From an uncultured Candidatus Saccharibacteria bacterium (GTDB lineage Bacteria > Patescibacteriota > Minisyncoccia > Phycocordibacterales > Phycocordibacteraceae), in assembly GCA_964349555.1 (NCBI GenBank), contig CAYGGK010000001.1:120330-184329 (forward strand): 64,000 nt of DNA, read 5' to 3'. Below are positions 15,956-54,341 of the stretch, piece after piece. The position numbers were made by a program, and so were the translations under genes. The notes beneath the pieces are model-generated. The model was not told the DNA's origin, ran no database searches, and was given only the letters and a program-made list of their open reading frames with translations. Numbering within the stretch: position 1 is the first letter of the stretch; each line of letters opens with the position of its first letter.

Positions 15956-16635
15956 TCCAAAACTAGTTTCGTCATCTTGCTATCATACTCGGCATCGCGA
16001 AGGTATTCGATAAGTGAGTCGCGGTAATCACTGAGCGATTTTTTGAAAAATGAAGTTGTGAGTACGGAAGGGAAGTTCTTCTTACCGACGTAGTCGAGGT
16101 AGCTGCTCCATCGGTATGAATCAAGATAATTCAACGCTTTACTTACACTCCCAATCCCACCCTTGCTACGCACACGCCATTCTCGTGCTTCTTTAAGATA
16201 ATCAAGAGGATTGAGATGAAGGTAGTGCAGGATGTAGAGGAAGTGCGGTTCCCGTTCGATCAAAATTTTCTTCGTACGACCCTGGAAAAGAGTTCCCTGA
16301 CGCTCATATCGTTCGTTGAAATAGTTTGCATAACCAACATTTAATTTACGAAGAAATAAACTAATACCACCCTCGATTCGCTCAGAAAGTAGAAGATGAT
16401 AGTGATTCTTCATGAGAACCCACCCATGAATATCCACCAACAACTTTCGTGCTTTCCTAAATGAAGGGTTTACGAAATCCCTCACGCCTGAAGAGTCAAA
16501 GAGACGCCAAAGATTATCGGCGGGAGCGGAATCGTTAAACTCATAGAGATCATGTACGAAACGTGCGTAGTCTTGGGTATCGAGGAACAAGTCACGGCCA
16601 TCAACCCCGCGGTTTAGTACATGCCACAGCTCCAT
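15952..16635 (-). mobile_element. IS200/RAYT-type Y1 (HUH) transposase
   Basis: WHVLNRG, the HYHLLLS HUH motif, GTLFQGR, YLHLNP and RWSSY. It is flanked by REP-like hairpins. Confidence 0.7.
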
Positions 16636-16650
16636 ACCTTTCCAGTATAC

Positions 16651-16675
16651 ATGAAAGGTTTACGAAACCTTTCAT
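16651..16675. repeat. REP-like perfect 25-bp hairpin
   Basis: atgaaaggtttacgaaacctttcat. A half-copy lies at 16461-16480 inside the transposase CDS. Confidence 0.7.
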
Positions 16676-16807
16676 GGGTGTGAATTATGTATGCGAGTGG
16701 TACCAGCCGCGCTTTCGCCTTTGTTCAGGGAAGATAGACCTTCGTCCATTCCAAACCTCCATAAATAAAGGAGGCCGTCACGAGACGGCCTCCCTACTCT
16801 CCGCACG

Positions 16808-17398
16808 TCACTGCTGATCGAGAAATGTTCTTACCTTCCTGAATGTTTCCCCGCGGTGAGAGACAGCGTTTTCTTCTTCAGTCGACATTTCTGCCCATGA
16901 GCGCGTATCGCCTATAGGAACGAAGAGCGCGCTGTATGGCATTTTTGACTGTGGAGGTACACGTGGGGCTTTGAGCATACTCCCCTGCACCTCTCCTTCA
17001 AATGCGTACTGCTCCCCTGAAGGTGATACGACTACAACGACGGCTTTGAAAGTTGCAGATCGGTCGAGGAGACCACCCATGCGCTTTAAGCAATAGTCTG
17101 TGATTTTTGACGTTTCTGCTCCTTCGCCAGCCCAACGCGCAGGATAGATCCCGGGTTCGCCACCGAGGCCCTTGATGAAGAGCCCGGTATCGTCGGCCAT
17201 CGTCCAAAGGTGCGGCTGTTGGTCGTGAACAAACCACGCCTTCTTCGCGGCGTTTTCCTCCAAGGACTTCCCATCTTCTATGGCTTCGCCTTTAACGCCA
17301 ATATCGTCGAGGGAAAGAATACTGTAGCGTGATCCAGCAAAGGACACTTGTACTTGTTCTCGCTTGCTCGGGTTTCTTGTCGCTAGTATAAGGTTCAT
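16808..17398 (-). CDS. rdgB: Non-canonical purine NTP pyrophosphatase (RdgB/Ham1)
   Basis: ATRNPSK, DTGL, GGEPG, ARWAG and SHRG motifs. Confidence 0.8.
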   Translation of the reverse strand: MNLILATRNPSKREQVQVSFAGSRYSILSLDDIGVKGEAIEDGKSLEENAAKKAWFVHDQQPHLWTMADDTGLFIKGLGGEPGIYPARWAGEGAETSKITDYCLKRMGGLLDRSATFKAVVVVVSPSGEQYAFEGEVQGSMLKAPRVPPQSKMPYSALFVPIGDTRSWAEMSTEEENAVSHRGETFRKVRTFLDQQ

Positions 17399-22194: not shown

Positions 22195-22638
22195 ATGAAA
22201 ATTATTTTACTGAAGGATGTAAAAGGGGTGGGGCGCACTCACGAGTCGGTAGAGGCAAGTGACGGACACGCGCTCAACTACCTCATCCCAAAGAAACTTG
22301 CCGTCCTCGCGACGCCGGTGACGGTGAGAGAAGCTGAGCTGCGTCGCAAGCAAGCGACGGATCGTGCAGAGCTTGACACCGTTCTTCTTGCCCAGAACCT
22401 CGCGGCTCTTGCTGAAGCGCGCGTCGTGATAAAAATGAAAGCGAACGAAAAGGGCCACCTCTATGATGCGGTAGGGAAGTCCGACATACAAAGAGAGGTT
22501 AAAGAACAGTCGCGCATTGACCTGCCGGAGGACGTGATAAAGCTGGAGAAGCCGATTAAAGAACTTGGTGTTTTTGATATTCCAGTCGCCACGGGCGATA
22601 CGTTCGGAAAATTCTCCCTCACGATTGAAGCAGAGTAG
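22195..22638 (+). CDS. rplI: 50S ribosomal protein L9
   Basis: MKIILLKDVKGVGR…. Confidence 0.85.
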   Translation: MKIILLKDVKGVGRTHESVEASDGHALNYLIPKKLAVLATPVTVREAELRRKQATDRAELDTVLLAQNLAALAEARVVIKMKANEKGHLYDAVGKSDIQREVKEQSRIDLPEDVIKLEKPIKELGVFDIPVATGDTFGKFSLTIEAE

Positions 22639-22644
22639 TTTTGT

Positions 22645-24342
22645 TCAAAGATTCTCTTTATTTTCTTTTCTTCCAAGTTCTTTAATAATTATTTCCACTA
22701 AGTCCGGGTGGTAGTGTTCGGCCTCATGTCCTCTTGACTTCTGTTTTTCAAACCACCCCGGGTTAGACACCCTATATTTCTCCGCAAAAGATATTATTGT
22801 AGAACCGTCTGCCTTAACAGCACGCCTAAGACTCTTCGCACTTTCCCACCCATCTTTCTTTCCCGGCGTTTCGTTAAAATGTTCTACCATTTTTTCCACT
22901 AAGTCCGGGTGGTAGTGCTCGGCTTTTTGGCTTCCTGACTTCTGTATTTCAAACCACTCCGGGTTAGATACCCTGTATCTCTCCGCAAAAAATTTTATGT
23001 TACGATGAGCTGCCTTAACAACACGCATAAGACCACTTGCGCTTTCCCACCCCTCTTTCTTTCCCGGCGTTTCGTTAAAATGTTCTACTATTTCTTTCAC
23101 TAAATCCGGGTGGTAGTGTTCGGCCTCATGTCCTCTTGACTTCTGTTTTTCAAACCACTCCGGGTTAGATACCCTGTATCTCTCCGCAAAAGATTTTATT
23201 TTACGAAGGTCTGCCTTAACAATAGGTATAAGACTCTTCGCACTTTCCCACCCATCTTTCTTTCCCGGCGTTTCGTTAAAATGTTCTACCATTTTTTCCA
23301 CTAAGTCCGGGTGGTAGTGTTCGGCTTCTACACTTCCCGACTTCTGTCTTTCAAACCACCCCGGGTTAGACACCCTATATTTCTCCGCAAAAGATATTAT
23401 TGTATGACCACTTGCCTTAAAAATATGCCTAAGACTTCTCGAACTTTCCCACCCCTCTTTCTTTTTTGGTACCTCTTTTATGTGTTCAAAATCTGATTTT
23501 GGGACGTTTGGTTTTTTATCGTCATTAACATCGAAATTTTCGGTTAAATACGTAAGCATACGTTCACGCCATTTGCTGTTTTGTCGTAGCACGCTACCAA
23601 TGGCAGGGTCTTCTTCTATATATTTCTTGTATTCGTCTTTGTCTGTCGTATCCAATCTCTCTATACTGATTACTTTTTGTAAAATTTTGTCTCTATCAAA
23701 TATAAAACTCGCGTTACCTTCTTCTTCGCAGATATACACCACTCGGTTTAACTCGGGTATTTCTACCCTGAAGTACGGATAACGCCGCATCATATTATCT
23801 GTAGTTTCTCCCTTTATAATTTTAATATCATCCTCTGTGGTGTCCTCGGCAGGGTCGTTTATGTATATATGAAGGTCATTTTGAAGGATATACATAAGAG
23901 TAGTCAATCTTGGTATGAGGTTCTTCTCTTCTAATCCCTTACTGCTTCCGGGGACGATGGGGTTATTTTCTTTGGAGGGGGGAACAAATACTTCTTTTGA
24001 TACGCCAGTCATTCTCGCTATGTTCCTTTCTAAGTCGTATATAGATTCTTTTCTTTTTGAAATAGCGTCTAGAGTATCGGTTACTGACTGCAATCCTAGA
24101 TACCCCAGAGCGGCATCTTCCAGTTCTTTTCCTATATAAGTCGTTCCGGGATTTTTTTCTTTATATTCAGAAGTTGCTTTAGACACAATGAGAATCAACG
24201 TGTCCACTGCCTCATCGTAGAAAGTATGTACGTTATCTGGGTTTATACTTGTGTGTAGGAGGTTGTCATACTCAACCTTAAGCGAGTTTTTTAAAGATTC
24301 AGGACGGGCTCTGTATTCTTTACCTGATAAACGACCCTCCAT
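22645..24342 (-). CDS. Hypothetical protein with four C-terminal 67-aa tandem repeats
   Basis: 201-bp DNA repeats across about 22690-23493 encode K(K/E)GWES…SFAEKYRVSNP(G/E)WFEKQKS…AEHYHPDLVEKMVEHFNETPGK four times. The ~300-aa N-terminal domain is unique. The gene is AT-rich compared with its neighbours. Confidence 0.6.
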   Translation of the reverse strand: MEGRLSGKEYRARPESLKNSLKVEYDNLLHTSINPDNVHTFYDEAVDTLILIVSKATSEYKEKNPGTTYIGKELEDAALGYLGLQSVTDTLDAISKRKESIYDLERNIARMTGVSKEVFVPPSKENNPIVPGSSKGLEEKNLIPRLTTLMYILQNDLHIYINDPAEDTTEDDIKIIKGETTDNMMRRYPYFRVEIPELNRVVYICEEEGNASFIFDRDKILQKVISIERLDTTDKDEYKKYIEEDPAIGSVLRQNSKWRERMLTYLTENFDVNDDKKPNVPKSDFEHIKEVPKKKEGWESSRSLRHIFKASGHTIISFAEKYRVSNPGWFERQKSGSVEAEHYHPDLVEKMVEHFNETPGKKDGWESAKSLIPIVKADLRKIKSFAERYRVSNPEWFEKQKSRGHEAEHYHPDLVKEIVEHFNETPGKKEGWESASGLMRVVKAAHRNIKFFAERYRVSNPEWFEIQKSGSQKAEHYHPDLVEKMVEHFNETPGKKDGWESAKSLRRAVKADGSTIISFAEKYRVSNPGWFEKQKSRGHEAEHYHPDLVEIIIKELGRKENKENL

Positions 24343-24361: not shown

Positions 24362-24634
24362 TTAAATAACGTCGGCGACGGTTTTGGTCATGATGCGGCC
24401 CGTAAAGCTCGTTTTACGTCGCGTGCGGTAGGCGACCTTGCCCTCAGAAAGCGCGAAGAGCGTATGGTCCCGGCCGACGGCGACATTCTTTCCCGCTTCA
24501 ATCTTCGTCCCGCGCTGGCGGAGGATGACCATTCCCGGGCGCGCTGAGGCGCCGTCAGAGAGCTTTATGCCGAGATATTTCGGGTTTGATGTATTAAGGT
24601 TTTTTGCCGAACCTCCGGCTTTTGTTGATGCCAT
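24362..24634 (-). CDS. rpmA: 50S ribosomal protein L27
   Basis: MASTKAGGSAKN…RQRGTK…GRDHTLFA. Confidence 0.85.
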   Translation of the reverse strand: MASTKAGGSAKNLNTSNPKYLGIKLSDGASARPGMVILRQRGTKIEAGKNVAVGRDHTLFALSEGKVAYRTRRKTSFTGRIMTKTVADVI

Positions 24635-24770
24635 AGTGGTATGTGTTTTACTGCGCAATTATAGCAAAAGCACGCGATTCATGCAAATTCGTGTACCCGA
24701 TATAAAAGACCGCCTGGGGGAGTTTGTGCTCCCACGCAGGCGGCCTGTAAGAGGAAGATTTAGGCGGTTT

Positions 24771-25172
24771 TTACAGGGACGAGCCGATTTCCACCCTCGC
24801 TACCTCGTTGAGATATTTATGTCCCGCCTTAACCGCTAAGATTTTGGTCTCGAGGAGTTTTTCAATGGCGTTTTTCAGCCTCCCAGCTTTCCCAGCGCCA
24901 AATGGAATCGTGATGATGACGTCCTTGGTGCCAGTGAAGATGTCCAGTTCGCCACCAAACTGCTCTTGTAAGTCTTCAGGAGCACCGATAGGTAATACCG
25001 CCACTCCATTGCGGATAACCACAATGATTAACGGCTCAACCCCGTTTTTTTTAAATTCCCAGAGATCTTGGGGGATGTATATCACCACCCCTGGATCGGC
25101 ACTTTCCCCCTTACCCATTAAGAAGTCACGTTTAGGTGCCGGAAAACGAACCAAGCGACGAGTACGTCCCAT
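24771..25172 (-). CDS. Hypothetical protein
   Basis: ORF 24771..25268 immediately upstream of rpmA on the same strand. A terminator-like hairpin follows at about 24690-24735. Confidence 0.35.
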   Translation of the reverse strand: MGRTRRLVRFPAPKRDFLMGKGESADPGVVIYIPQDLWEFKKNGVEPLIIVVIRNGVAVLPIGAPEDLQEQFGGELDIFTGTKDVIITIPFGAGKAGRLKNAIEKLLETKILAVKAGHKYLNEVARVEIGSSL

Positions 25173-25277
25173 AAGAATTCTCCCCTTCCTGTGAAGACCA
25201 AATGCTATCGGATTGATAGCTAGCTTGAATGATACAGCAGAATCTATTTTCAGCAAATTATTGCGCAAGCCACGTGC

Positions 25278-26200: not shown

Positions 26201-27166
26201 TCAGTTATTAAGCTCGCTTCCCCCGTGGAATTTTTCGTGTATATCGCGGAGTCGTTTATTCGTCACGTGCGTGTAGATCTGGGTTGTCGCGACGTTTTTA
26301 TGTCCGAGCAATTCTTGCACACTGCGCAGGTCTGCGCCGTGGGAGAGAAGGTCGGTCGCGTAGCTGTGCCGGAGCGTGTGGGGAGTGACCTTTTTTGAGA
26401 GGCCCGCGAGTACCGCGCATCGGGATATCATTTTCTGAATAGAGCGCGGGGACAAGCGTTTTGCGTCCGCGTCATCCTTGTGTCGGAAGTTTATAAAAAG
26501 GGGAGTATGCACGTCGCGCCTCGCCACGAGATACGTTCGGAGCCATTCGGCCGCCCGAGGTGAGATAAAAATGGTTCTGACATGATTCCCTTTACCAACG
26601 ATAGATAATTCGTAGGTCCGTGTATGACTTTTGTCGTTAAGAAACGAAACTTGGTCCGTATCAAGCGCGACAAGCTCGCTGATGCGCATGCCAGACGAGA
26701 AAAAAAGTTCCATAATGGCCCGATCGCGCAAGCCGTTTAAAGTTGCTACGTCAGGAACTTTCATCATCTTCTCCACATCGTGTACGTCAAGGAAGGAAAG
26801 AGTCTCTTCTGTCTTTTGTTTTGCCAATTTAATTTTTGAAGAAGGAAGAGACTCTATGTCGCGATCGGCGAGATAGTTGAGAAACGCGCGCAGAGCTATA
26901 AGGTAATAGTTCTGGGACTTTTTGCCGAGGTATCCGCCGGAAGGTGTCGTATATTTGCGTGCGAGGTAGAGACGATAATCCCATATATGCTTTGGCGTGA
27001 GTTCGTGAGGCAAGAGTCCCTCGTCTCCATTTTTCTTCAGCCAGCCCATAAAAAGTTGTAAGTACTGCTTGTAATTTTTTTGCGTATTACTCGACAGTCC
27101 TTTTTCAACCTCGCAGTAATCGAGGAAGGGAAGGAGGTGGTTAGAGAGCGATTGCTTGTCGCGCAT
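26201..27166 (-). CDS. Tyrosine site-specific recombinase (XerC/XerD-like)
   Basis: R…HTLRHSYATDLL…LGH…TQIYTHV catalytic box. Confidence 0.8.
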   Translation of the reverse strand: MRDKQSLSNHLLPFLDYCEVEKGLSSNTQKNYKQYLQLFMGWLKKNGDEGLLPHELTPKHIWDYRLYLARKYTTPSGGYLGKKSQNYYLIALRAFLNYLADRDIESLPSSKIKLAKQKTEETLSFLDVHDVEKMMKVPDVATLNGLRDRAIMELFFSSGMRISELVALDTDQVSFLNDKSHTRTYELSIVGKGNHVRTIFISPRAAEWLRTYLVARRDVHTPLFINFRHKDDADAKRLSPRSIQKMISRCAVLAGLSKKVTPHTLRHSYATDLLSHGADLRSVQELLGHKNVATTQIYTHVTNKRLRDIHEKFHGGSELNN

Positions 27167-39948: not shown

Positions 39949-40551
39949 TCAATCACTGGAATTATGCTTCATCGCCTTTTTGTGTTGTTTCTCCTTCCAT
40001 CTCTTGAATGGAATACCCAAGCCAATCTTAAACAGCTTATTAAGAACTGGCATGATTCTTTTCATGGCCGGAGAAAGGATTGGATAATGGGGACTTGTGG
40101 GTTGATTCTCCAAAAATTGAAGCCATTCTTTAGGCAAGCTATGCTCCACAGCTCCTTCAAGAAGAATGTTCATATATCTTTTAGAGGGCCTTAAATGCTT
40201 GATGCCGGTATTCTCTGACCAAAAAACGTGCGCGGTTTTTAGTCCACTTCGTGTTCCCAATACCTCAAGATTAAGATTTTGGTATTCTCCTCCGCCCTCC
40301 ATTTTGTTAAGTATACTTATCTCATTCTGCGTCATGTGATAAAGCACCCCGTAGATTTTACTACTATCGTGTTTTTCGACATTGGCAAAAGAAGGCTCGA
40401 TAAGCGGTATTCCTGGATGGTCAAACACGAGCCTGTAGCCGTTAAGCTCCGCGGGCTCGGAAGAACGAGGGCGCATTCCTCGACTCTCGAGAAATATCTT
40501 TGAATTCATGTTCGCTCCAAACGCGAAATACCAGAAAGGATCAGACGTCAT
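39949..40551 (-). CDS. Gamma-glutamyl cyclotransferase (AIG2/GGCT-like)
   Basis: YFAFGANM motif. Start taken at MTSDPF so that it does not overlap the tRNA. Confidence 0.55.
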   Translation of the reverse strand: MTSDPFWYFAFGANMNSKIFLESRGMRPRSSEPAELNGYRLVFDHPGIPLIEPSFANVEKHDSSKIYGVLYHMTQNEISILNKMEGGGEYQNLNLEVLGTRSGLKTAHVFWSENTGIKHLRPSKRYMNILLEGAVEHSLPKEWLQFLENQPTSPHYPILSPAMKRIMPVLNKLFKIGLGIPFKRWKEKQHKKAMKHNSSD

Positions 40552-40559
40552 ACTTTTTG

Positions 40560-40642
40560 TGCGCCGGGTTGGATTCGAACCAACGAAGACCGAAATCAAG
40601 GCGTTTACAGCGCCTCCCCGTTGACCACTTGGGTACCGACGC
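40560..40642 (-). tRNA. tRNA-Tyr (anticodon GUA), long variable arm
   Basis: Folded by hand into an 83-nt structure. Acceptor GCGTCGG/CCGGCGC with one G·U pair, anticodon loop CTGTAAA, T-loop TTCGAAT. Confidence 0.65.
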
Positions 40643-40650
40643 GCACCCCA

Positions 40651-41280
40651 TCATCCTATCATTTTTAGTCGATATTCGTCTATCCAACGAATGATTTGCT
40701 CGAAGAATTTCTTATCCGAATAGCGAATGTGCACAAGCCCGTGGACCATACGCGGCCCGCGCCAACTATGCGTCATGGAGGCTTTCTTGATGTAAGGTTT
40801 TGTAAAGTGATTGATTGACAACTTGAGAAGTTTGCACCAAAAGCGCTTCAGATTTTGGATACTTTGTCCCTCGTATGCGTACAGATGCAGTCGAATTCTC
40901 TTTTGATCTATCCCACATACTTCAGAAAGGAATTTCCAAAAAATAAGTACCATGTCTGGATCTGAATTTGCGAAGTCAACCGTCCCTCCTCTTGCTTTAT
41001 AGCCTTCAGCCCAGTACAACATAATCGCCGCTATCTTGAGTTGTTCCTGCTCACTCGTTAACTTCTGTTTCAATTCATATGAAAGAGGCTTCGACTCAAA
41101 TCGAATGCGGTTGGTCTCCTGCGCGGAACGACGAGACACTTTGAGTTTGCGAAGAGTGTAATAGGCCGCGTGAATACTAATACCAAAATGATTGGCCATT
41201 TGTTGTGCACTTAGTCCGTTTCGATATAAGCGAGCCGCTTCTTTTTGCTGTTCCAGTGGAAGCGCCATTTTGACAGACAT
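40651..41280 (-). CDS. HTH-domain protein with LAGLIDADG-like region (possible free-standing homing endonuclease)
   Basis: N-terminal HTH (LSAQQMANHFGISIHAAYYTLRK). A LAGLIDADG-like IMLYWAEGYK…VDFANSD sits mid-protein. AT-rich. Confidence 0.35.
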   Translation of the reverse strand: MSVKMALPLEQQKEAARLYRNGLSAQQMANHFGISIHAAYYTLRKLKVSRRSAQETNRIRFESKPLSYELKQKLTSEQEQLKIAAIMLYWAEGYKARGGTVDFANSDPDMVLIFWKFLSEVCGIDQKRIRLHLYAYEGQSIQNLKRFWCKLLKLSINHFTKPYIKKASMTHSWRGPRMVHGLVHIRYSDKKFFEQIIRWIDEYRLKMIG

Positions 41281-50568: not shown

Positions 50569-51099
50569 TTATTTCTTATTTGCAAAGTGCCCGACGCGGA
50601 CCTTGGCCGGACGGATGACATTTTCTCCAATTCGCCACCCTTTTTCAAGCAATGTTGTAACGGTGCCGTCCATTTCAAGAGAGTCGGCCGCGTCCTGCCC
50701 AAGCGCGTCATAGAGCGCGGGGTCAAATTGCTCGCCCACGTTCCCGACCTCTTCAAGTCCAAGCGAAGCGAAGGCGCTCTCGAGTTGTTTTGCGATAGCC
50801 AAAAATCCTTCCGGTATCTCCCCATGTTCCTTGGCGCGCTCAAGGGCGTCAAAGGCGGGCAGAAGGGTCTCTACTGCCTTAACCTTTCCCTTAAACTCCG
50901 CCGTCTTGCTGTCGGTTTCAAATCGCTTGAGCGCATTAACATAGTCGGCCTTCGCCCTCTGCCAGCCGTCCATATATTCCTGCTTCTCCTTCCGGCACGC
51001 CTGTAGCTCCCCGCGCATCTTCGCGACTTTATTTTCTTCAAGGGGCTCGATATCCTCAGACCCTTCTGCATCAATCTCAACTCCTTCTTCGTCCATCAT
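50569..51099 (-). CDS. grpE: Nucleotide exchange factor GrpE
   Basis: Coiled-coil followed by a C-terminal β-domain (…KGWRIGENVIRPAKV…). Confidence 0.8.
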   Translation of the reverse strand: MMDEEGVEIDAEGSEDIEPLEENKVAKMRGELQACRKEKQEYMDGWQRAKADYVNALKRFETDSKTAEFKGKVKAVETLLPAFDALERAKEHGEIPEGFLAIAKQLESAFASLGLEEVGNVGEQFDPALYDALGQDAADSLEMDGTVTTLLEKGWRIGENVIRPAKVRVGHFANKK

Positions 51100-51146
51100 T
51101 ACAGTATGCTCCAAACCAGGTTTCAAATCAAATAACACTGATCACC

Positions 51147-51503
51147 TTATCTTGACAGCACGATAATACTCGCCTCAATTTCAGTATGGCAATTTTTACA
51201 AACCAAAACACATTTTTTAGCTTCTCGTAAAATGCTGTCCCATGAATATGAAAGTCCTTTTACACTCAAAGCAAAAGTCTTTGTTTTCGGATTCGTATGA
51301 TGAAAGTCTAATGCTCCTGCATATTTTTTATATCCGCAAATGACACATTTCCCTCCAAAAATTTCTACAAGTTTCTCTTTTTTCTCGCGCCTATGGTTTA
51401 TGACCCATTCAGAAGCGCATTTACCACAGCGGAAAGCACCATCTGGTCTCGGAAAATGTTTTGTCTGACCATGTTTCTTACATGTTTTTATCATTAAAGA
51501 CAT
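51147..51503 (-). CDS. HNH endonuclease family protein
   Basis: CxxC…CxxC zinc knuckles, then DFHH…N…CH. Confidence 0.55.
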   Translation of the reverse strand: MSLMIKTCKKHGQTKHFPRPDGAFRCGKCASEWVINHRREKKEKLVEIFGGKCVICGYKKYAGALDFHHTNPKTKTFALSVKGLSYSWDSILREAKKCVLVCKNCHTEIEASIIVLSR

Positions 51504-51583
51504 TATAACACCCTGTGTTAGGTTTGGTGAGTGGCTGGGGTTGGTATATAATGGCGATGGTCAATGTTATTGGCCATTTATAT

Positions 51584-51656
51584 TCCGCGGTAGCTCAGCT
51601 GGTAGAGCGCCTCGCTGTTAACGAGGATGTCCTTGGTTCGAGTCCAAGCCGCGGAG
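51584..51656 (+). tRNA. tRNA-Asn (anticodon GUU)
   Basis: Folded by hand. Acceptor TCCGCGG/CCGCGGA, anticodon loop CTGTTAA. Confidence 0.75.
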
Positions 51657-51723
51657 CTAGAGTTGATAGATAGAGTGAGTCGTGATATATAAAAAATAAG
51701 ACGAACGGTTGAAAGGGGGAGTC

Positions 51724-52029
51724 ATGAACCTGAGAAGCATTCGTCAGACGGCTGACACGGCCGCGATTGCGCTGGACAAGCTGGGTGATAGGGTTCATCC
51801 AGCAGTTACGAGAGCTATCGCGGCACACTTTGAGCTCGAGAAGAAGCAGACTGGCGAGCTCGGTGTTGAGTTTCTCCAAGGCTTTTATTCGGGCGCATTT
51901 TTTGTACACAGCTGGCTTCTTAAAACCGCCGGCCCGACTGCGGCACCCACTCAGATGGTGGCGCAATTGACCATCGAGGCCGCCCGACAATACATCGGCC
52001 ACATCGAAAAACTGGTCGAGAAGGGCTGA
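51724..52029 (+). CDS. Hypothetical protein
   Basis: About 100 aa, sitting right after tRNA-Asn. Confidence 0.3.
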   Translation: MNLRSIRQTADTAAIALDKLGDRVHPAVTRAIAAHFELEKKQTGELGVEFLQGFYSGAFFVHSWLLKTAGPTAAPTQMVAQLTIEAARQYIGHIEKLVEKG

Positions 52030-52961: not shown

Positions 52962-53405
52962 TCAATCATCCAAATCAAGTGGCTTCACTGGTTTCATCAC
53001 GGCTTTGGGATTCTGTTTCCACTCGTCGGATACATCGGCGTAGAGTTCGAGTTCGTTGCCGTCCGGATCAAGTATGTAGATGCTATGCGTAACGCCATGA
53101 TCCCCAGTGCCCACAATAGTGACGCCGTTTTGTTTGAGTTCGCGATACGCTTGCCTCGCATCGTCGTTTGAATCGCCGATTTTGAATCCGATATGATAAA
53201 GGCCCGGAGTCGGGTACTCACTTTTGACCGGACTCCCACCAATTTCGATAAGCAATAATTCATGGTGAGTTCTTCCTGACGAAAATAACGCCGTTCCTTC
53301 ATCGCGATGGATTTCATGAAAACCTAGTGTATGACGGTAGAAGTCAGCCGAACGCTTTAGGTTGGATACATAGAGAACAATATGGCCGAGTTCTTTAATG
53401 TGCAT
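52962..53405 (-). CDS. VOC (glyoxalase/bleomycin-resistance/dioxygenase) family protein
   Basis: Paired βαβββ modules (HIVLYVSNL…, HIGFKI…). Confidence 0.6.
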   Translation of the reverse strand: MHIKELGHIVLYVSNLKRSADFYRHTLGFHEIHRDEGTALFSSGRTHHELLLIEIGGSPVKSEYPTPGLYHIGFKIGDSNDDARQAYRELKQNGVTIVGTGDHGVTHSIYILDPDGNELELYADVSDEWKQNPKAVMKPVKPLDLDD

Positions 53406-53460
53406 AAGGTCATTGTACCTCGCAGCAACCTCTGTTCTTCCATACTGGTTAGCTTAGACA

Positions 53461-53649
53461 ATGACTGAACGTATACTGTTGAAATTATTCTGGGTGATGA
53501 TGCTGTTGTGCGCGGGGTCGGCGTTGGCCCTTATCTGGATGGGCGACATTTTTCCAGAGAAGCTTGTCCCCACCTTCTTTATCTTAGGTTTCGCGAGCTT
53601 CTTAATTTGGGCACCTCTCGTTACATATAAATTCTTAGCGAGACTCTGA
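53461..53649 (+). CDS. Small membrane protein
   Basis: Two TM helices, 62 aa. Confidence 0.25.
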   Translation: MTERILLKLFWVMMLLCAGSALALIWMGDIFPEKLVPTFFILGFASFLIWAPLVTYKFLARL

Positions 53650-53738
53650 AATTTCGTAGGTTCTCATTTCAATACAAAAGTTCGAACGTCGTCAAAGACG
53701 CAGAGCAGAAACAAAAAAGGGGCAGTGGATGCCCCCAG

Positions 53739-54341
53739 TTATAAAACAATTCGATACCCCTTCCCTTTAACATTCTCTATCGAAAGGTTTGGGTTAATTT
53801 CCTCCAGCTTGGACCTTAGTTTAAAGATGGTGACACCAATGTCTTCACTCTTTCGAACGGCAACCTCGCCCTTGAGAAGGACCATCGACTCGAACAGAGC
53901 GTATTCAGTCCTATTCAGTTCGTAACGATACTTACCAAGCTCGCCTATAAGCTGATTAAACGAACTGATAATCCTGCGGCGGTCAATCGCCTCCAGGTGA
54001 GCGACTAACACACAAACCGGAGTCGAATCATCGTAGACAAAAGCTGCCCCCGAATCAAGAAGTTTTACTCTCTCTTCAGGACATCCGCTACCACGAGCAA
54101 TCATGAGCGTCCTCTCGTGGCAACGTCTCGGTATCTCCCTTCTCAAAACAAAACAGGGAGATTTCCCGGTATTCGCCGTAAAGAGGTCTCTTTGCGGAGC
54201 GAAAACAAAGTGCGGAATTTCAGAGTGCCTGAGGGCGGAAAAAAGATCATCCCTGTTTTCCGCCTCCCACCATTTCCAGTTCTTTCTAAGAAGGCAGTCT
54301 GGCGGAGTTTGTACACCAAGACTGTATATGTTAAGTCTCAT
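53739..54341 (-). CDS. OmpR/PhoB-type winged-helix DNA-binding protein without a receiver domain
   Basis: C-terminal LNRTEYALFESMVLLKGEVAVRKSEDIGVTIFKLRSKLEEI…VKGKGYRI. Confidence 0.5.
   Translation of the reverse strand: MRLNIYSLGVQTPPDCLLRKNWKWWEAENRDDLFSALRHSEIPHFVFAPQRDLFTANTGKSPCFVLRREIPRRCHERTLMIARGSGCPEERVKLLDSGAAFVYDDSTPVCVLVAHLEAIDRRRIISSFNQLIGELGKYRYELNRTEYALFESMVLLKGEVAVRKSEDIGVTIFKLRSKLEEINPNLSIENVKGKGYRIVL

What the first reader, a model, noticed from the sequence alone, without database searches (positions are those of the whole stretch)
22645..24342. AT-rich gene with four perfect-period 201-bp tandem repeats inserted between rplI and rpmA
The C-terminal half is made of four 67-aa repeats that are nearly identical at the DNA level, in the region from about 22690 to 23493. 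Each encodes GWES…SFAEKYRVSNPxWFEKQKS…AEHYHPDLV…HFNETPGK. The N-terminal ~300 aa are unique.

Base composition and codon usage differ from the flanking ribosomal protein genes, which points to horizontal acquisition. High DNA-level identity between repeats implies recent expansion or ongoing concerted evolution, with the potential for copy-number variation. The repeat itself is unfamiliar. It could be a nucleic-acid- or cell-wall-binding module in a defence or surface protein.
Basis: seen in the sequence. Interest (0 to 1): 0.6.

Follow-up and report, generated by a model that had tools for sequence, protein, structure and literature searches.

The report
Inserted gene with four DNA-binding-like repeats
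A foreign-looking gene in a tiny uncultured (CPR/Patescibacteria) bacterium sits between two ribosomal-protein genes that are direct neighbours in related genomes. It joins an unknown, conserved domain to four tandem copies of a new variant of the winged helix-turn-helix fold, which usually binds DNA.

Summary
**Observation:** mostly confirmed. ORF 22645-24342 (-) encodes 565 aa: a unique 293-aa N-terminus, then four units of exactly 67 aa (201 bp). The units are 75-87% identical in DNA (57-73% in protein), not "nearly identical".

**Foreign origin:**
- GC3 is 0.39, against 0.50-0.68 in 13 other genes of the window.
- In 65 syntenic loci from relatives, rplI and rpmA lie next to each other (64 convergent, 49 within 150 bp). 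None carries this gene.
- It is therefore a lineage-specific insertion.

**The repeat:**
- It folds with high confidence (pLDDT 94) as a MerR-type winged helix-turn-helix.
- It matches no Pfam family at threshold.
- Elsewhere it occurs in 1-8 copies or more, fused to SF2/SNF2 helicases, methyltransferases, once to a sigma factor and once to a restriction-endonuclease-like domain.

**The N-terminal domain:** its "EEGNA" core has no known relative. In other CPR genomes it carries other repeat types instead, including the Pfam "integrase repeat".

**Copy number:** contigs with identical flanks carry 4 repeats or 1. Real variation and assembly error cannot be separated without reads.

**Best reading:** a horizontally acquired, stand-alone, multivalent DNA-binding protein with an unknown effector domain. 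The surface/cell-wall reading is rejected; a defence role finds no support.

The parts
22645..24342 (-). Whole ORF: 565 aa plus stop codon. It is a stand-alone gene lying 19 bp downstream of rpmA on the same strand, and convergent with rplI (6 bp spacer).
   Evidence: The identical protein is called on ENA contig L003.
24007..24300 (-). N-terminal helical bundle, aa 15-112. It is variable or dispensable: the shorter 'class C' relatives lack it.
   Evidence: AlphaFold model m80434cd27f68, pLDDT about 90 in this part. Class C proteins align only from aa 117 onward.
23533..23994 (-). Conserved alpha/beta 'EEGNA' core, aa 117-270. Invariant residues are R145, G178, R186, Y190, E207, N210 and K235. 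The core is acidic (aa 117-290 has pI 4.8). It is an orphan domain.
23263..23463 (-). Repeat unit 1 (aa 294-360), a winged-HTH-like module.
23062..23262 (-). Repeat unit 2 (aa 361-427).
22861..23061 (-). Repeat unit 3 (aa 428-494).
22660..22860 (-). Repeat unit 4 (aa 495-561). Its last helix diverges (EIIIKELGRKEN). It is a mosaic of unit-2-like and unit-1-like stretches.
23295..23325 (-). A 31-nt stretch in unit 1 that is identical to 22692-22722 in unit 4. The crossover that produces the 1-repeat allele (a 603-bp deletion) falls here.
22692..22722 (-). The partner 31-nt stretch in unit 4.
22195..22638 (+). rplI (ribosomal protein L9), the left flank of the insertion site.
   Evidence: Pfam Ribosomal_L9_N and Ribosomal_L9_C.
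24362..24658 (-). rpmA (ribosomal protein L27), the right flank. It is called as 90 aa on related contigs. The target gene is probably co-transcribed with it.
   Evidence: Pfam Ribosomal_L27. Gene calls on L001-L003. A promoter-like site at 24687-24658 is a consensus match only.

Best explanation
The gene is a horizontally acquired, stand-alone gene of a CPR/Patescibacteria (Kaiserbacteria/Paceibacteria-like) genome. It was inserted at the permissive convergent junction between rplI and rpmA.

**Proposed function.** It encodes a cytoplasmic, multivalent DNA-binding protein.
- The four 67-aa units are each an independent MerR-type winged helix-turn-helix: strand, helix, turn, helix, beta-hairpin wing, helix.
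- They are joined by short linkers, so the array should hold on to DNA through several weak or short contacts at once.
- The array tethers the conserved, acidic N-terminal 'EEGNA' alpha/beta domain to that DNA. The activity of that domain is unknown.

**How the units differ.** Differences between units fall on helix 1, the turn, the start of the recognition helix and the wing tip. In this fold those are the usual DNA-facing elements. The hydrophobic core is under purifying selection.

**How the array changes.** Array length changes by unequal recombination between units.

**Shown here:**
- the insertion and the foreign codon usage;
- the predicted fold;
- the fusion partners;
- the pattern of variation between units;
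- the existence of 4-unit and 1-unit alleles in assemblies.

**Inferred, not shown:**
- that the units bind DNA;
- that the variable surfaces set binding preference;
- that the N-domain is the effector.
For: **1. Insertion**
- 65 of 80 related metagenome loci hold both L9 and L27. In 64 they are convergent and in 49 they are at most 150 bp apart.
- No locus has an N-domain or repeat hit.
- Relatives with 90% identical DnaB have an empty site (L137) or an M15 peptidase there (L133-135).
- GC3 is 0.39, against 0.50-0.68 in the other genes measured.
- Homologues sit at other places in other genomes: rnhB|rpmF, and after lepA.
- No neighbouring gene is conserved across 39 loci.

**2. Fold**
- The four-unit model has pLDDT 94.3. 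Every unit has the same order of secondary-structure elements: two helices, a beta-hairpin, then a helix.
- Longer arrays of the same repeat pass Pfam HTH_29, 'winged helix-turn-helix'.
- hhalign links the repeat to a second wHTH-like repeat type at 91% probability.

**3. Partners**
- The repeat profile finds 937 cluster representatives among 1.84 billion.
- Of the 32 long proteins scanned, 24 have SNF2-type helicase domains, 11 have Methyltransf_11, and others have ResIII/DEAD. Single cases have sigma-70 regions 2+4, an EC042_2821 restriction-endonuclease-like domain, or DnaB_2.
- Shorter relatives are EcoAI-R/RadD-like SF2 helicases.

**4. Variation**
- Scaffold codons have dN/dS 0.13-0.37 (undefined in one pair with no synonymous change). 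Variable patches have 0.86-1.6, and 7.0 in one pair.
- Family-wide entropy is low at core positions (W6, L12, I23, R31, P35, W37, F38, E49, Y51, H52, P53, L55). It is high on helix 1, the turn and the wing.

**5. Charge and location**
- Units have pI 7.2-9.3 and the N-domain about 4.8-5.4. There is no hydrophobic segment.

**6. Array length**
- Orthologues have 1-8 units.
- Contigs with identical flanks carry 4 or 1 units, with the junction in a 31-nt identical stretch.
Against: - No experiment and no sequence-level homology to a proven DNA-binding domain. Pfam, NCBIfam and PDB sequence searches give nothing at threshold for this protein.
- Winged-helix domains can also bind protein or RNA.
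- The repeat units are only neutral to mildly basic.
- The N-domain has no recognisable catalytic or binding fold, so half of the protein is unexplained.
- Elevated dN/dS in the variable patches rests on few substitutions and could be relaxed constraint on surface loops.
- Low GC3 could in principle reflect expression level rather than origin.
Confidence: 0.6

Rival explanations
1. Selfish homing-type element. The orphan N-terminal domain is a new kind of site-specific nuclease and the wHTH array is its DNA-recognition module, as NUMOD modules are in free-standing homing endonucleases. The gene would spread by cutting empty intergenic sites between conserved genes and being copied in by repair.
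For: - The insertion is precise, essentially only the ORF, with 6 bp and 19 bp spacers, between conserved genes. The site is empty in relatives.
- Codon usage is foreign.
- Family members sit at different housekeeping junctions.
- No recombinase travels with it. The nearby Xer-like gene is syntenic in relatives.
- DNA-binding-like arrays are swapped between family members.
- The core has an invariant set of charged residues: R145, R186, Y190, E207, N210, K235.
Against: - The N-domain is strongly acidic.
- The same junction also holds unrelated genes in other lineages: an M15 peptidase and a pilin-like gene. It is therefore simply a permissive site.
- The family was not found in viral, phage or plasmid collections.
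Confidence: 0.13
2. Chromosome-organising or anchoring protein, working like RacA or pSK1 Par. The wHTH units bind repeated chromosomal sites, and the N-terminal helical bundle and core mediate oligomerisation or attachment.
For: - The best structural matches of the unit are the Par and RacA DNA-binding domains.
- The N-terminal part contains a four-helix bundle.
- The gene sits among housekeeping genes and is probably co-transcribed with rpmA.
Against: - The gene is absent from close relatives. Its distribution is patchy, and it has foreign codon usage. A core chromosome-organising function is therefore unlikely.
- Par and RacA have one wHTH followed by a coiled coil, not an array behind an alpha/beta domain.
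- The fusion partners of the repeat are enzymes acting on DNA.
Confidence: 0.12
3. The repeats are not DNA binders. They would be protein- or RNA-interaction modules that use a winged-helix scaffold, and the protein would be an adaptor.
For: - There is no sequence-level link to proven DNA-binding families.
- The units are only mildly basic.
- The strongly conserved His/Tyr/Trp residues (HPEWF, EHYHPDL) are unusual for MerR-type HTHs.
Against: - The fusion partners are nearly all DNA enzymes or a sigma factor.
- The fold matches are DNA-bound domains.
- In orthologues the array is replaced by other wHTH-like repeats.
Confidence: 0.1
4. Surface or cell-wall-binding repeat protein, or a component of a known anti-phage defence system.
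For: - The gene is a tandem-repeat, AT-rich accessory gene.
- Some relatives of the repeat are fused to SNF2 helicase plus methyltransferase.
- One helicase form lies next to an integrase.
Against: - There is no signal peptide or transmembrane stretch. The longest run of small or hydrophobic residues is 8.
- The predicted fold is a cytoplasmic wHTH.
- PADLOC has no hit.
- No partner gene is conserved in 39 loci.
Confidence: 0.04

Closest known systems
MerR-type winged helix-turn-helix DNA-binding domains, as in pSK1 Par (PDB 8csh) and B. subtilis RacA (PDB 5i41)
   Different: - No sequence-level match to any Pfam, NCBIfam or PDB family.
- It has its own signature: GW...R..[HN]PEWF...E[HY]YHP[DE]L.
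- It occurs as head-to-tail arrays of 1-8 units or more, not as one domain followed by a dimerising coiled coil.
Pfam PF14882 INT_rpt ('integrase repeat unit')
   Same: It plays the same architectural role. It forms a tandem array C-terminal to the same EEGNA domain in other CPR genomes (L038; related units in L012 and L019). It also sits between the SF2 helicase and the wHTH array in helicase fusions.
   Different: It is not homologous to the window's repeat (hhalign probability 3%). The window protein has no INT_rpt hit.
DNA-binding tandem-repeat proteins (TALE, STAR, MOON, pTERF; Hu et al., NAR 2024, PMC11417379)
   Same: Units of constant length in tandem, variable copy number, and fusion to effector domains.
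   Different: - The fold is different.
- Variation is spread over about 25 surface positions rather than 1-2 specificity residues.
- The full text of that paper has no occurrence of 'Patescibacteria', 'Candidatus', 'winged' or 'helix-turn-helix'.
- No binding data exist for this family.
Free-standing homing endonuclease genes with modular DNA-binding domains (NUMOD modules)
   Same: A single-ORF insertion between conserved genes, presence/absence polymorphism, foreign composition, and modular DNA-binding-like C-terminus.
   Different: No LAGLIDADG, GIY-YIG, HNH or PD-(D/E)xK domain was found. The NUMOD4 hit is below threshold (17.3 bits against 23.4).

Membership tests
MerR-family / HTH_17-type winged HTH (sequence families) | Match to the Pfam or NCBIfam family model above its curated cut-off | tested here: not met
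   No MerR, MerR_1 or HTH_17 hit for the window protein at E up to 0.1. There is no NCBIfam hit of that kind.
MerR-family / HTH_17-type winged HTH (fold) | Helix-turn-helix followed by a beta-hairpin wing and a further helix | tested here: met
MerR-family transcription regulators / Par / RacA (architecture) | A single N-terminal wHTH followed by a long dimerising coiled coil, with or without an effector-binding domain | tested here: not met
   Each unit ends in a 12-13 residue helix (18 in the last unit) and is followed directly by the next unit. The array is C-terminal.
MerR-type wHTH (function) | Binds duplex DNA through the recognition helix and the wing | not testable with these tools
   This is inferred from the fold and the fusion partners. 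EMSA, SELEX or a co-structure is needed.
Pfam PF13551 HTH_29 | Score at or above the gathering threshold of 28.1 bits | tested here: not met
   No hit for the window protein. Relatives with longer arrays do pass, for example P0081 at 38.6 bits.
Pfam PF14882 INT_rpt | Match to the INT_rpt model | tested here: not met
   No hit in the window protein. hhalign of type 1 against INT_rpt-like units gives 3% probability. Orthologue L038 does match, at E 1.4e-24.
Homing endonuclease (free-standing) | A recognisable nuclease domain (LAGLIDADG, GIY-YIG, HNH, PD-(D/E)xK) | tested here: not met
Homing endonuclease (free-standing) | Presence/absence polymorphism at a conserved genomic site | tested here: met
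   The site is empty in 49 loci (gap of 150 bp or less) and in the relative L137 (DnaB 90% identical).
Homing endonuclease (free-standing) | Cleaves the empty target site | not testable with these tools
   Needs an in vitro cleavage assay.
TALE-like programmable repeat arrays | Near-identical units that differ at one or two specificity residues | tested here: not met
   Units are 57-73% identical in protein. Differences are spread over unit positions 8-25, 40-47 and the last helix.
Known anti-phage defence systems (PADLOC-DB) | Match to a defence-protein model, and a conserved partner gene | tested here: not met
   No PADLOC hit. No neighbouring gene family occurs in more than 6 of 39 loci.
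Secreted / cell-wall-binding repeat protein | A signal peptide or membrane anchor | tested here: not met
   The N-terminus MEGRLSGKEYRARPE is polar. The longest run of small or hydrophobic residues is 8.

The most novel reading that the evidence does not exclude
The EEGNA domain is a new DNA-acting effector, possibly a nuclease or recombination factor, carried by a selfish single-gene element that spreads between CPR genomes. Its interchangeable arrays of small winged-HTH or integrase-repeat modules would form a combinatorial DNA-address system. The variable helix and wing residues of each unit would read a few base pairs, and unit number and order would set the target. That would be a new class of modular, potentially re-programmable DNA-recognition arrays, which CPR helicase-methyltransferases and a sigma factor also use.
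Probability: 0.1. Interest if true: 0.8.

Novelty: new variant of a known kind. Interest (0 to 1): 0.55.

Why it matters
- **A new repeat family.** It adds a previously undescribed sequence family of winged-HTH modules. The profile search found 937 clusters at 50% identity. All family members here that carry an organism label are labelled CPR/Patescibacteria, apart from a few MAG contigs labelled otherwise. Unusually for this fold, the module occurs as long head-to-tail arrays.
- **An orphan domain.** It defines a conserved domain, the EEGNA core, that is combined with at least four different repeat types. Such cassette swapping points to a general way in which these reduced genomes target proteins to DNA.
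- **A case of gene gain in a CPR genome.** This is a single ORF dropped into a convergent ribosomal-protein junction, with the empty site documented. A 4-versus-1 repeat difference within one strain is also seen in assemblies. If real, it is direct evidence for rapid array remodelling.
- **A possible tool.** If the units prove sequence-specific, the family would be a candidate scaffold for engineered DNA binders.

Tried and rejected
**Sequence-family searches**
- The whole protein against Pfam, PHROGs, NCBIfam, PADLOC and PDB sequences gave only sub-threshold noise: NUMOD4 at 17.3 bits, a PezT 'FR..HP' motif at 30 bits against a cut-off of 470, FRAT-87 at 23 bits, and a PHROG terminase at E 8e-4. 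I treat these as chance or as generic HTH resemblance.
- The N-domain gave nothing convincing in Pfam on 20 members, a profile search of PDB sequences, PHROGs on 27 core sequences, or Foldseek against BFVD.

**Structure searches**
- Foldseek against AFDB50 could not be run because the library was unavailable.

**Searches that failed or found nothing**
- A profile search of the 5.8-billion-protein set with the core alignment returned only 4 short hits and not even the known members. It was uninformative.
- Viral contigs: the N-domain patterns gave no confirmed relative. A degenerate DNA pattern for WF...YHPDLV gave 10 chance matches with no repeat by HMM.
- tblastn against the phage and plasmid collections found no match.
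- No tRNA gene lies within about 8 kb of the gene on either side, so none marks an attachment site, and no flanking direct repeats were found.

**Ideas considered and dropped**
- A GIY-YIG-like reading of 'YFRV...VYIC' has no support from fold or Pfam.
- The Xer-like integrase 2 kb away as an island integrase is rejected, because it is syntenic in relatives that lack the gene.

**Literature**
- Searches found no description of this repeat or domain.
Full report
**1. What is in the sequence**

The minus-strand ORF 22645-24342 encodes 565 aa. Tandem Repeats Finder reports a 201-bp period, 3.9 copies, score 1088, at 22688-23464. At protein level the four units begin at aa 294, 361, 428 and 495, exactly 67 aa apart. 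In window coordinates they are 23263-23463, 23062-23262, 22861-23061 and 22660-22860.

- DNA identity is 75-87% and protein identity 57-73%. Of 201 columns, 138 are invariant.
- Synonymous divergence between units is 0.11-0.32.
- Unit 4 is a mosaic of unit-2-like and unit-1-like stretches, which points to exchange between units.
- The array is nevertheless among the more homogeneous in the family. In 6 of 25 orthologues, including this one, a unit's nearest relative lies in the same protein. In most orthologues the units are only 24-55% identical to each other.

The window holds a single copy of both the repeat and the N-domain.

**2. Context and origin**

By Pfam, the flanking genes are rplI (22195-22638, +) and rpmA (24362-24658, -). 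The spacers are 6 bp and 19 bp, so the insert is essentially the ORF alone. The gene is the lowest-GC kilobase of the window, at 0.406. Its GC3 is 0.39, against 0.50-0.68 in 13 other genes, so the difference lies in codon usage and not only in amino-acid content.

The organism is a member of Patescibacteria. Its DnaB is 88-89% identical to proteins labelled Candidatus Kaiserbacteria, Paceibacterota or Minisyncoccota.

A scan of metagenome contigs with the L9 protein returned 80 loci with L9 37-76% identical.
- The order dnaB-cysS-S41 peptidase-rplI, then convergent rpmA, then the LOG-like gene and Xer, is conserved.
- 65 loci contain both L9 and L27. In 64 the two genes are convergent and in 49 they are at most 150 bp apart.
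- No locus contains the N-domain or the repeat.
- Where the gap is larger it holds other genes: an M15-type peptidase, or in one case a pilin-like gene.
- Relatives with DnaB 90% identical have an empty site (L137) or the M15 peptidase (L133-135).

The gene is therefore a lineage-specific gain at a permissive junction between two convergent transcription units.
- The Xer-like integrase 2 kb away is syntenic in relatives that lack the gene, so it is not an island integrase.
- No tRNA gene lies within about 8 kb on either side and no flanking direct repeats were found.
- Full-length homologues in other CPR genomes lie elsewhere, between rnhB and rpmF or after lepA.
- No neighbouring gene family recurs in more than 6 of 39 loci. 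The gene works on its own.

**3. The repeat**

An AlphaFold2 model of aa 290-565, built on 32 aligned four-unit arrays, has mean pLDDT 94.3. All four units show the same order of elements: helix, helix, beta-hairpin, helix, preceded in most units by a short strand.

- then a long list of MerR-family N-terminal domains, a mycobacteriophage Xis, GlnR/TnrA and MarR/ArsR-type winged helices.

No sequence family reaches threshold for the window protein. Longer arrays of the same repeat do pass Pfam HTH_29, "winged helix-turn-helix".

Across 356 units from the family, the conserved positions are G5, W6, L12, I23, A27, R31, [HN]34, P35, E36, W37, F38, E49, [HY]50, Y51, H52, P53, [DE]54, L55, V56 and I59. 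From their hydrophobic character and the model I take these to be mostly core positions. Variable positions lie on helix 1, the turn, the first turns of helix 2 and the wing.

Within the window protein the same split appears in substitution rates.
- Scaffold codons have dN/dS 0.13-0.37 in five of six pairs; the sixth has no synonymous change.
- The variable patches have 0.86-1.6, and 7.0 in one pair.
- The counts are small, so this is a tendency and not a test.

In MerR-type domains the recognition helix and the wing contact DNA. That statement is established knowledge of the family, not something tested here.

The units are neutral to basic (pI 7.2-9.3). The N-terminal part is acidic (pI 4.8-5.4). 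There is no hydrophobic segment.

**4. Where else the repeat occurs**

A profile of the four-unit array, scored against 1.84 billion cluster representatives, finds 937 proteins at E of 0.001 or less and 345 at 1e-30 or less.

Among the first 80 homologues the array is C-terminal in all but one (P0036, where it is N-terminal) and has 1-8 units. Three main architectures are seen:
- the EEGNA N-domain plus array, as in this gene;
- a shorter form that keeps only the alpha/beta core plus array;
- an SF2 helicase of the EcoAI-R/RadD/ResIII type plus array, sometimes with an INT_rpt unit in between.

Of 32 longer proteins (1016-1831 aa), 24 have SNF2-related helicase domains, 11 also have Methyltransf_11, and 9 have ResIII. 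Single cases carry sigma-70 regions 2 and 4, an EC042_2821 restriction-endonuclease-like domain, OST-HTH or DnaB_2. One helicase form lies directly after a phage-integrase-family gene.

The partners are thus overwhelmingly proteins that act on DNA. This is the main indirect argument that the array is a DNA-targeting device.

**5. The N-terminal domain**

The model (pLDDT 81.6, pTM 0.79) shows a helical bundle (aa 15-112) and an alpha/beta part (aa 134-267).

The alpha/beta core (aa 117-270) is the conserved piece. It is found in 87 related proteins. Its invariant residues are R145, G178, R186, Y190, E207, N210 and K235, within a motif C-[DEN]-E-E-G-N-A-[ST].

A scan of one genome per species found 37 loci encoding the domain. 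Most of the MAGs are labelled as CPR lineages: Nomurabacteria, Paceibacterota, Moranbacteria, Magasanikbacteria, Kerfeldbacteria, Shapirobacteria, or 'Saccharibacteria'. Four contigs carry Gammaproteobacteria or Coriobacteriia MAG labels.

In these genomes the domain is joined to different C-terminal tandem repeats:
- type 1, as in the window;
- type 2, an INT_rpt-like repeat. L038 matches Pfam INT_rpt at E 1.4e-24; 12 proteins carry this type;
- type 3, 'GEWKGFY..HWgt', in 7 proteins. hhalign probability to type 1 is 77% over the HTH part;
- type 4, a repeat whose sequence pattern resembles Xis/MerR-type HTHs, in 3 proteins. hhalign probability to type 1 is 91%.

The core is therefore a constant module that is given different small-domain arrays.

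**6. Copy number**

The 565-aa protein is encoded on two assemblies. One is L003, which is 100% identical to the window over 7.7 kb.

Two other contigs are from assemblies with neighbouring ENA accession numbers (L001 of 189 kb, and L002).
- They are identical to the window in their flanks, apart from one substitution and contig-end differences in L002.
- They lack exactly 603 bp, leaving one chimeric unit.
- The junction lies in a 31-nt stretch shared by unit 1 (23295-23325) and unit 4 (22692-22722).

All are short-read MEGAHIT k141 contigs. The four distinct units cannot be an assembly invention, so the 4-unit allele is real. The 1-unit form may be a true deletion allele or a graph shortcut. 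Reads are needed to decide.

**7. Interpretation**

The best-supported account is a horizontally acquired, stand-alone gene for a cytoplasmic protein. In it, four winged-HTH modules tether an orphan, conserved, acidic domain to DNA (confidence about 0.6).

| Rival | Confidence | Main point for | Main point against |
|---|---|---|---|
| Homing-type selfish element with a new nuclease | 0.13 | The mode of insertion | No nuclease signal at all |
| RacA/Par-like chromosome organiser | 0.12 | Fold matches of the unit | Patchy, foreign distribution |
| Non-DNA adaptor | 0.10 | No sequence link to DNA binders | Fusion partners act on DNA |
| Surface or defence protein | 0.04 | AT-rich accessory repeat gene | No export signal, no PADLOC hit, no partner gene |

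**8. Novelty**

The fold class is known. The following were not found in any family library or in the searchable literature: the sequence family, its use as long tandem arrays, the orphan EEGNA domain, and the swapping of array types. I rate the finding as a new variant of a known kind, with moderate interest.

Noticed in passing
window 22555-22568 and 22673-22686: A perfect 14-nt inverted repeat, ATTAAAGAACTTGG. One arm lies in the 3' end of rplI and the other in the 3' tail of the inserted gene. Both arms encode the peptide IKELG. They are 104 nt apart and bracket both stop codons. I expect about 0.02 such matches by chance in 3.4 kb (my own estimate). RNA folding of 22545-22696 uses this stem: -38 kcal/mol, z = -3.0 against shuffles. 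It could be a shared 3'-end structure for the convergent transcripts, or a trace of the insertion event.
   Followed up: partly
window 24771-25268 (-), overlapped by 24808-25194 (+): The 165-aa ORF is called as a gene upstream of rpmA on related contigs. It has no Pfam, NCBIfam or PADLOC hit and no tblastn match in 80 syntenic loci. Relatives have an unrelated 116-117 aa ORF on the opposite strand at that position. This stretch is a second variable spot next to rpmA, and which strand codes is unclear.
   Followed up: partly
related loci L057, L059, L071, L072, L082, L086, L133-L135, L104: In other lineages the rplI/rpmA junction holds other genes: a roughly 170-175-aa M15-type peptidase (Pfam Peptidase_M15_4 on L133-135), or in L104 a 491-aa pilin-like gene. 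The junction is a recurrent site of gene gain.
   Followed up: partly
L001 and L002 against window 22692-23325: An allele with an exact 603-bp deletion (three units) occurs in two short-read assemblies of the same strain. The flanks are identical.
   Followed up: partly
window 26201-27166 (-): The tyrosine recombinase (Phage_integrase family) 2 kb from the insert is conserved in position in relatives L048, L049 and L058 (78-81% identical). It is probably the housekeeping XerC/D-like gene and not part of a mobile island.
   Followed up: yes
L133 11548-11865; L136; L137: In close relatives rplU (L21) is not next to rpmA. It lies about 8 kb away beside a DEAD-box helicase, which is unusual compared with the common rplU-rpmA operon. 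IS200/IS605-type Y1 transposase ORFs occur nearby in L136 and L137.
   Followed up: no
L139 4980-8733: A helicase carrying seven units of the same repeat lies 86 bp downstream of a phage-integrase-family gene, in a block of hypothetical genes after lepA. A full-length EEGNA homologue (P0003) also sits directly after lepA in another genome. This may be an insertion hot spot or a mobile element.
   Followed up: no
P0057 aa 331-363, and one member of alignment A3: Some units of the repeat family score above the Pfam cut-off for PF09713, 'Plant protein 1589 of unknown function' (35.2 bits against 27.8). The window protein has a faint precomputed hit to HTH_AT3G52170. This may be a distant link to plant HTH-like domains.
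   Followed up: no
window 40001-41000, 51001-52000, 53001-54000, 16001-17000: Other kilobase blocks have GC of 0.44-0.47 against a window mean of about 0.52. They may be further acquired genes and were not examined.
   Followed up: no
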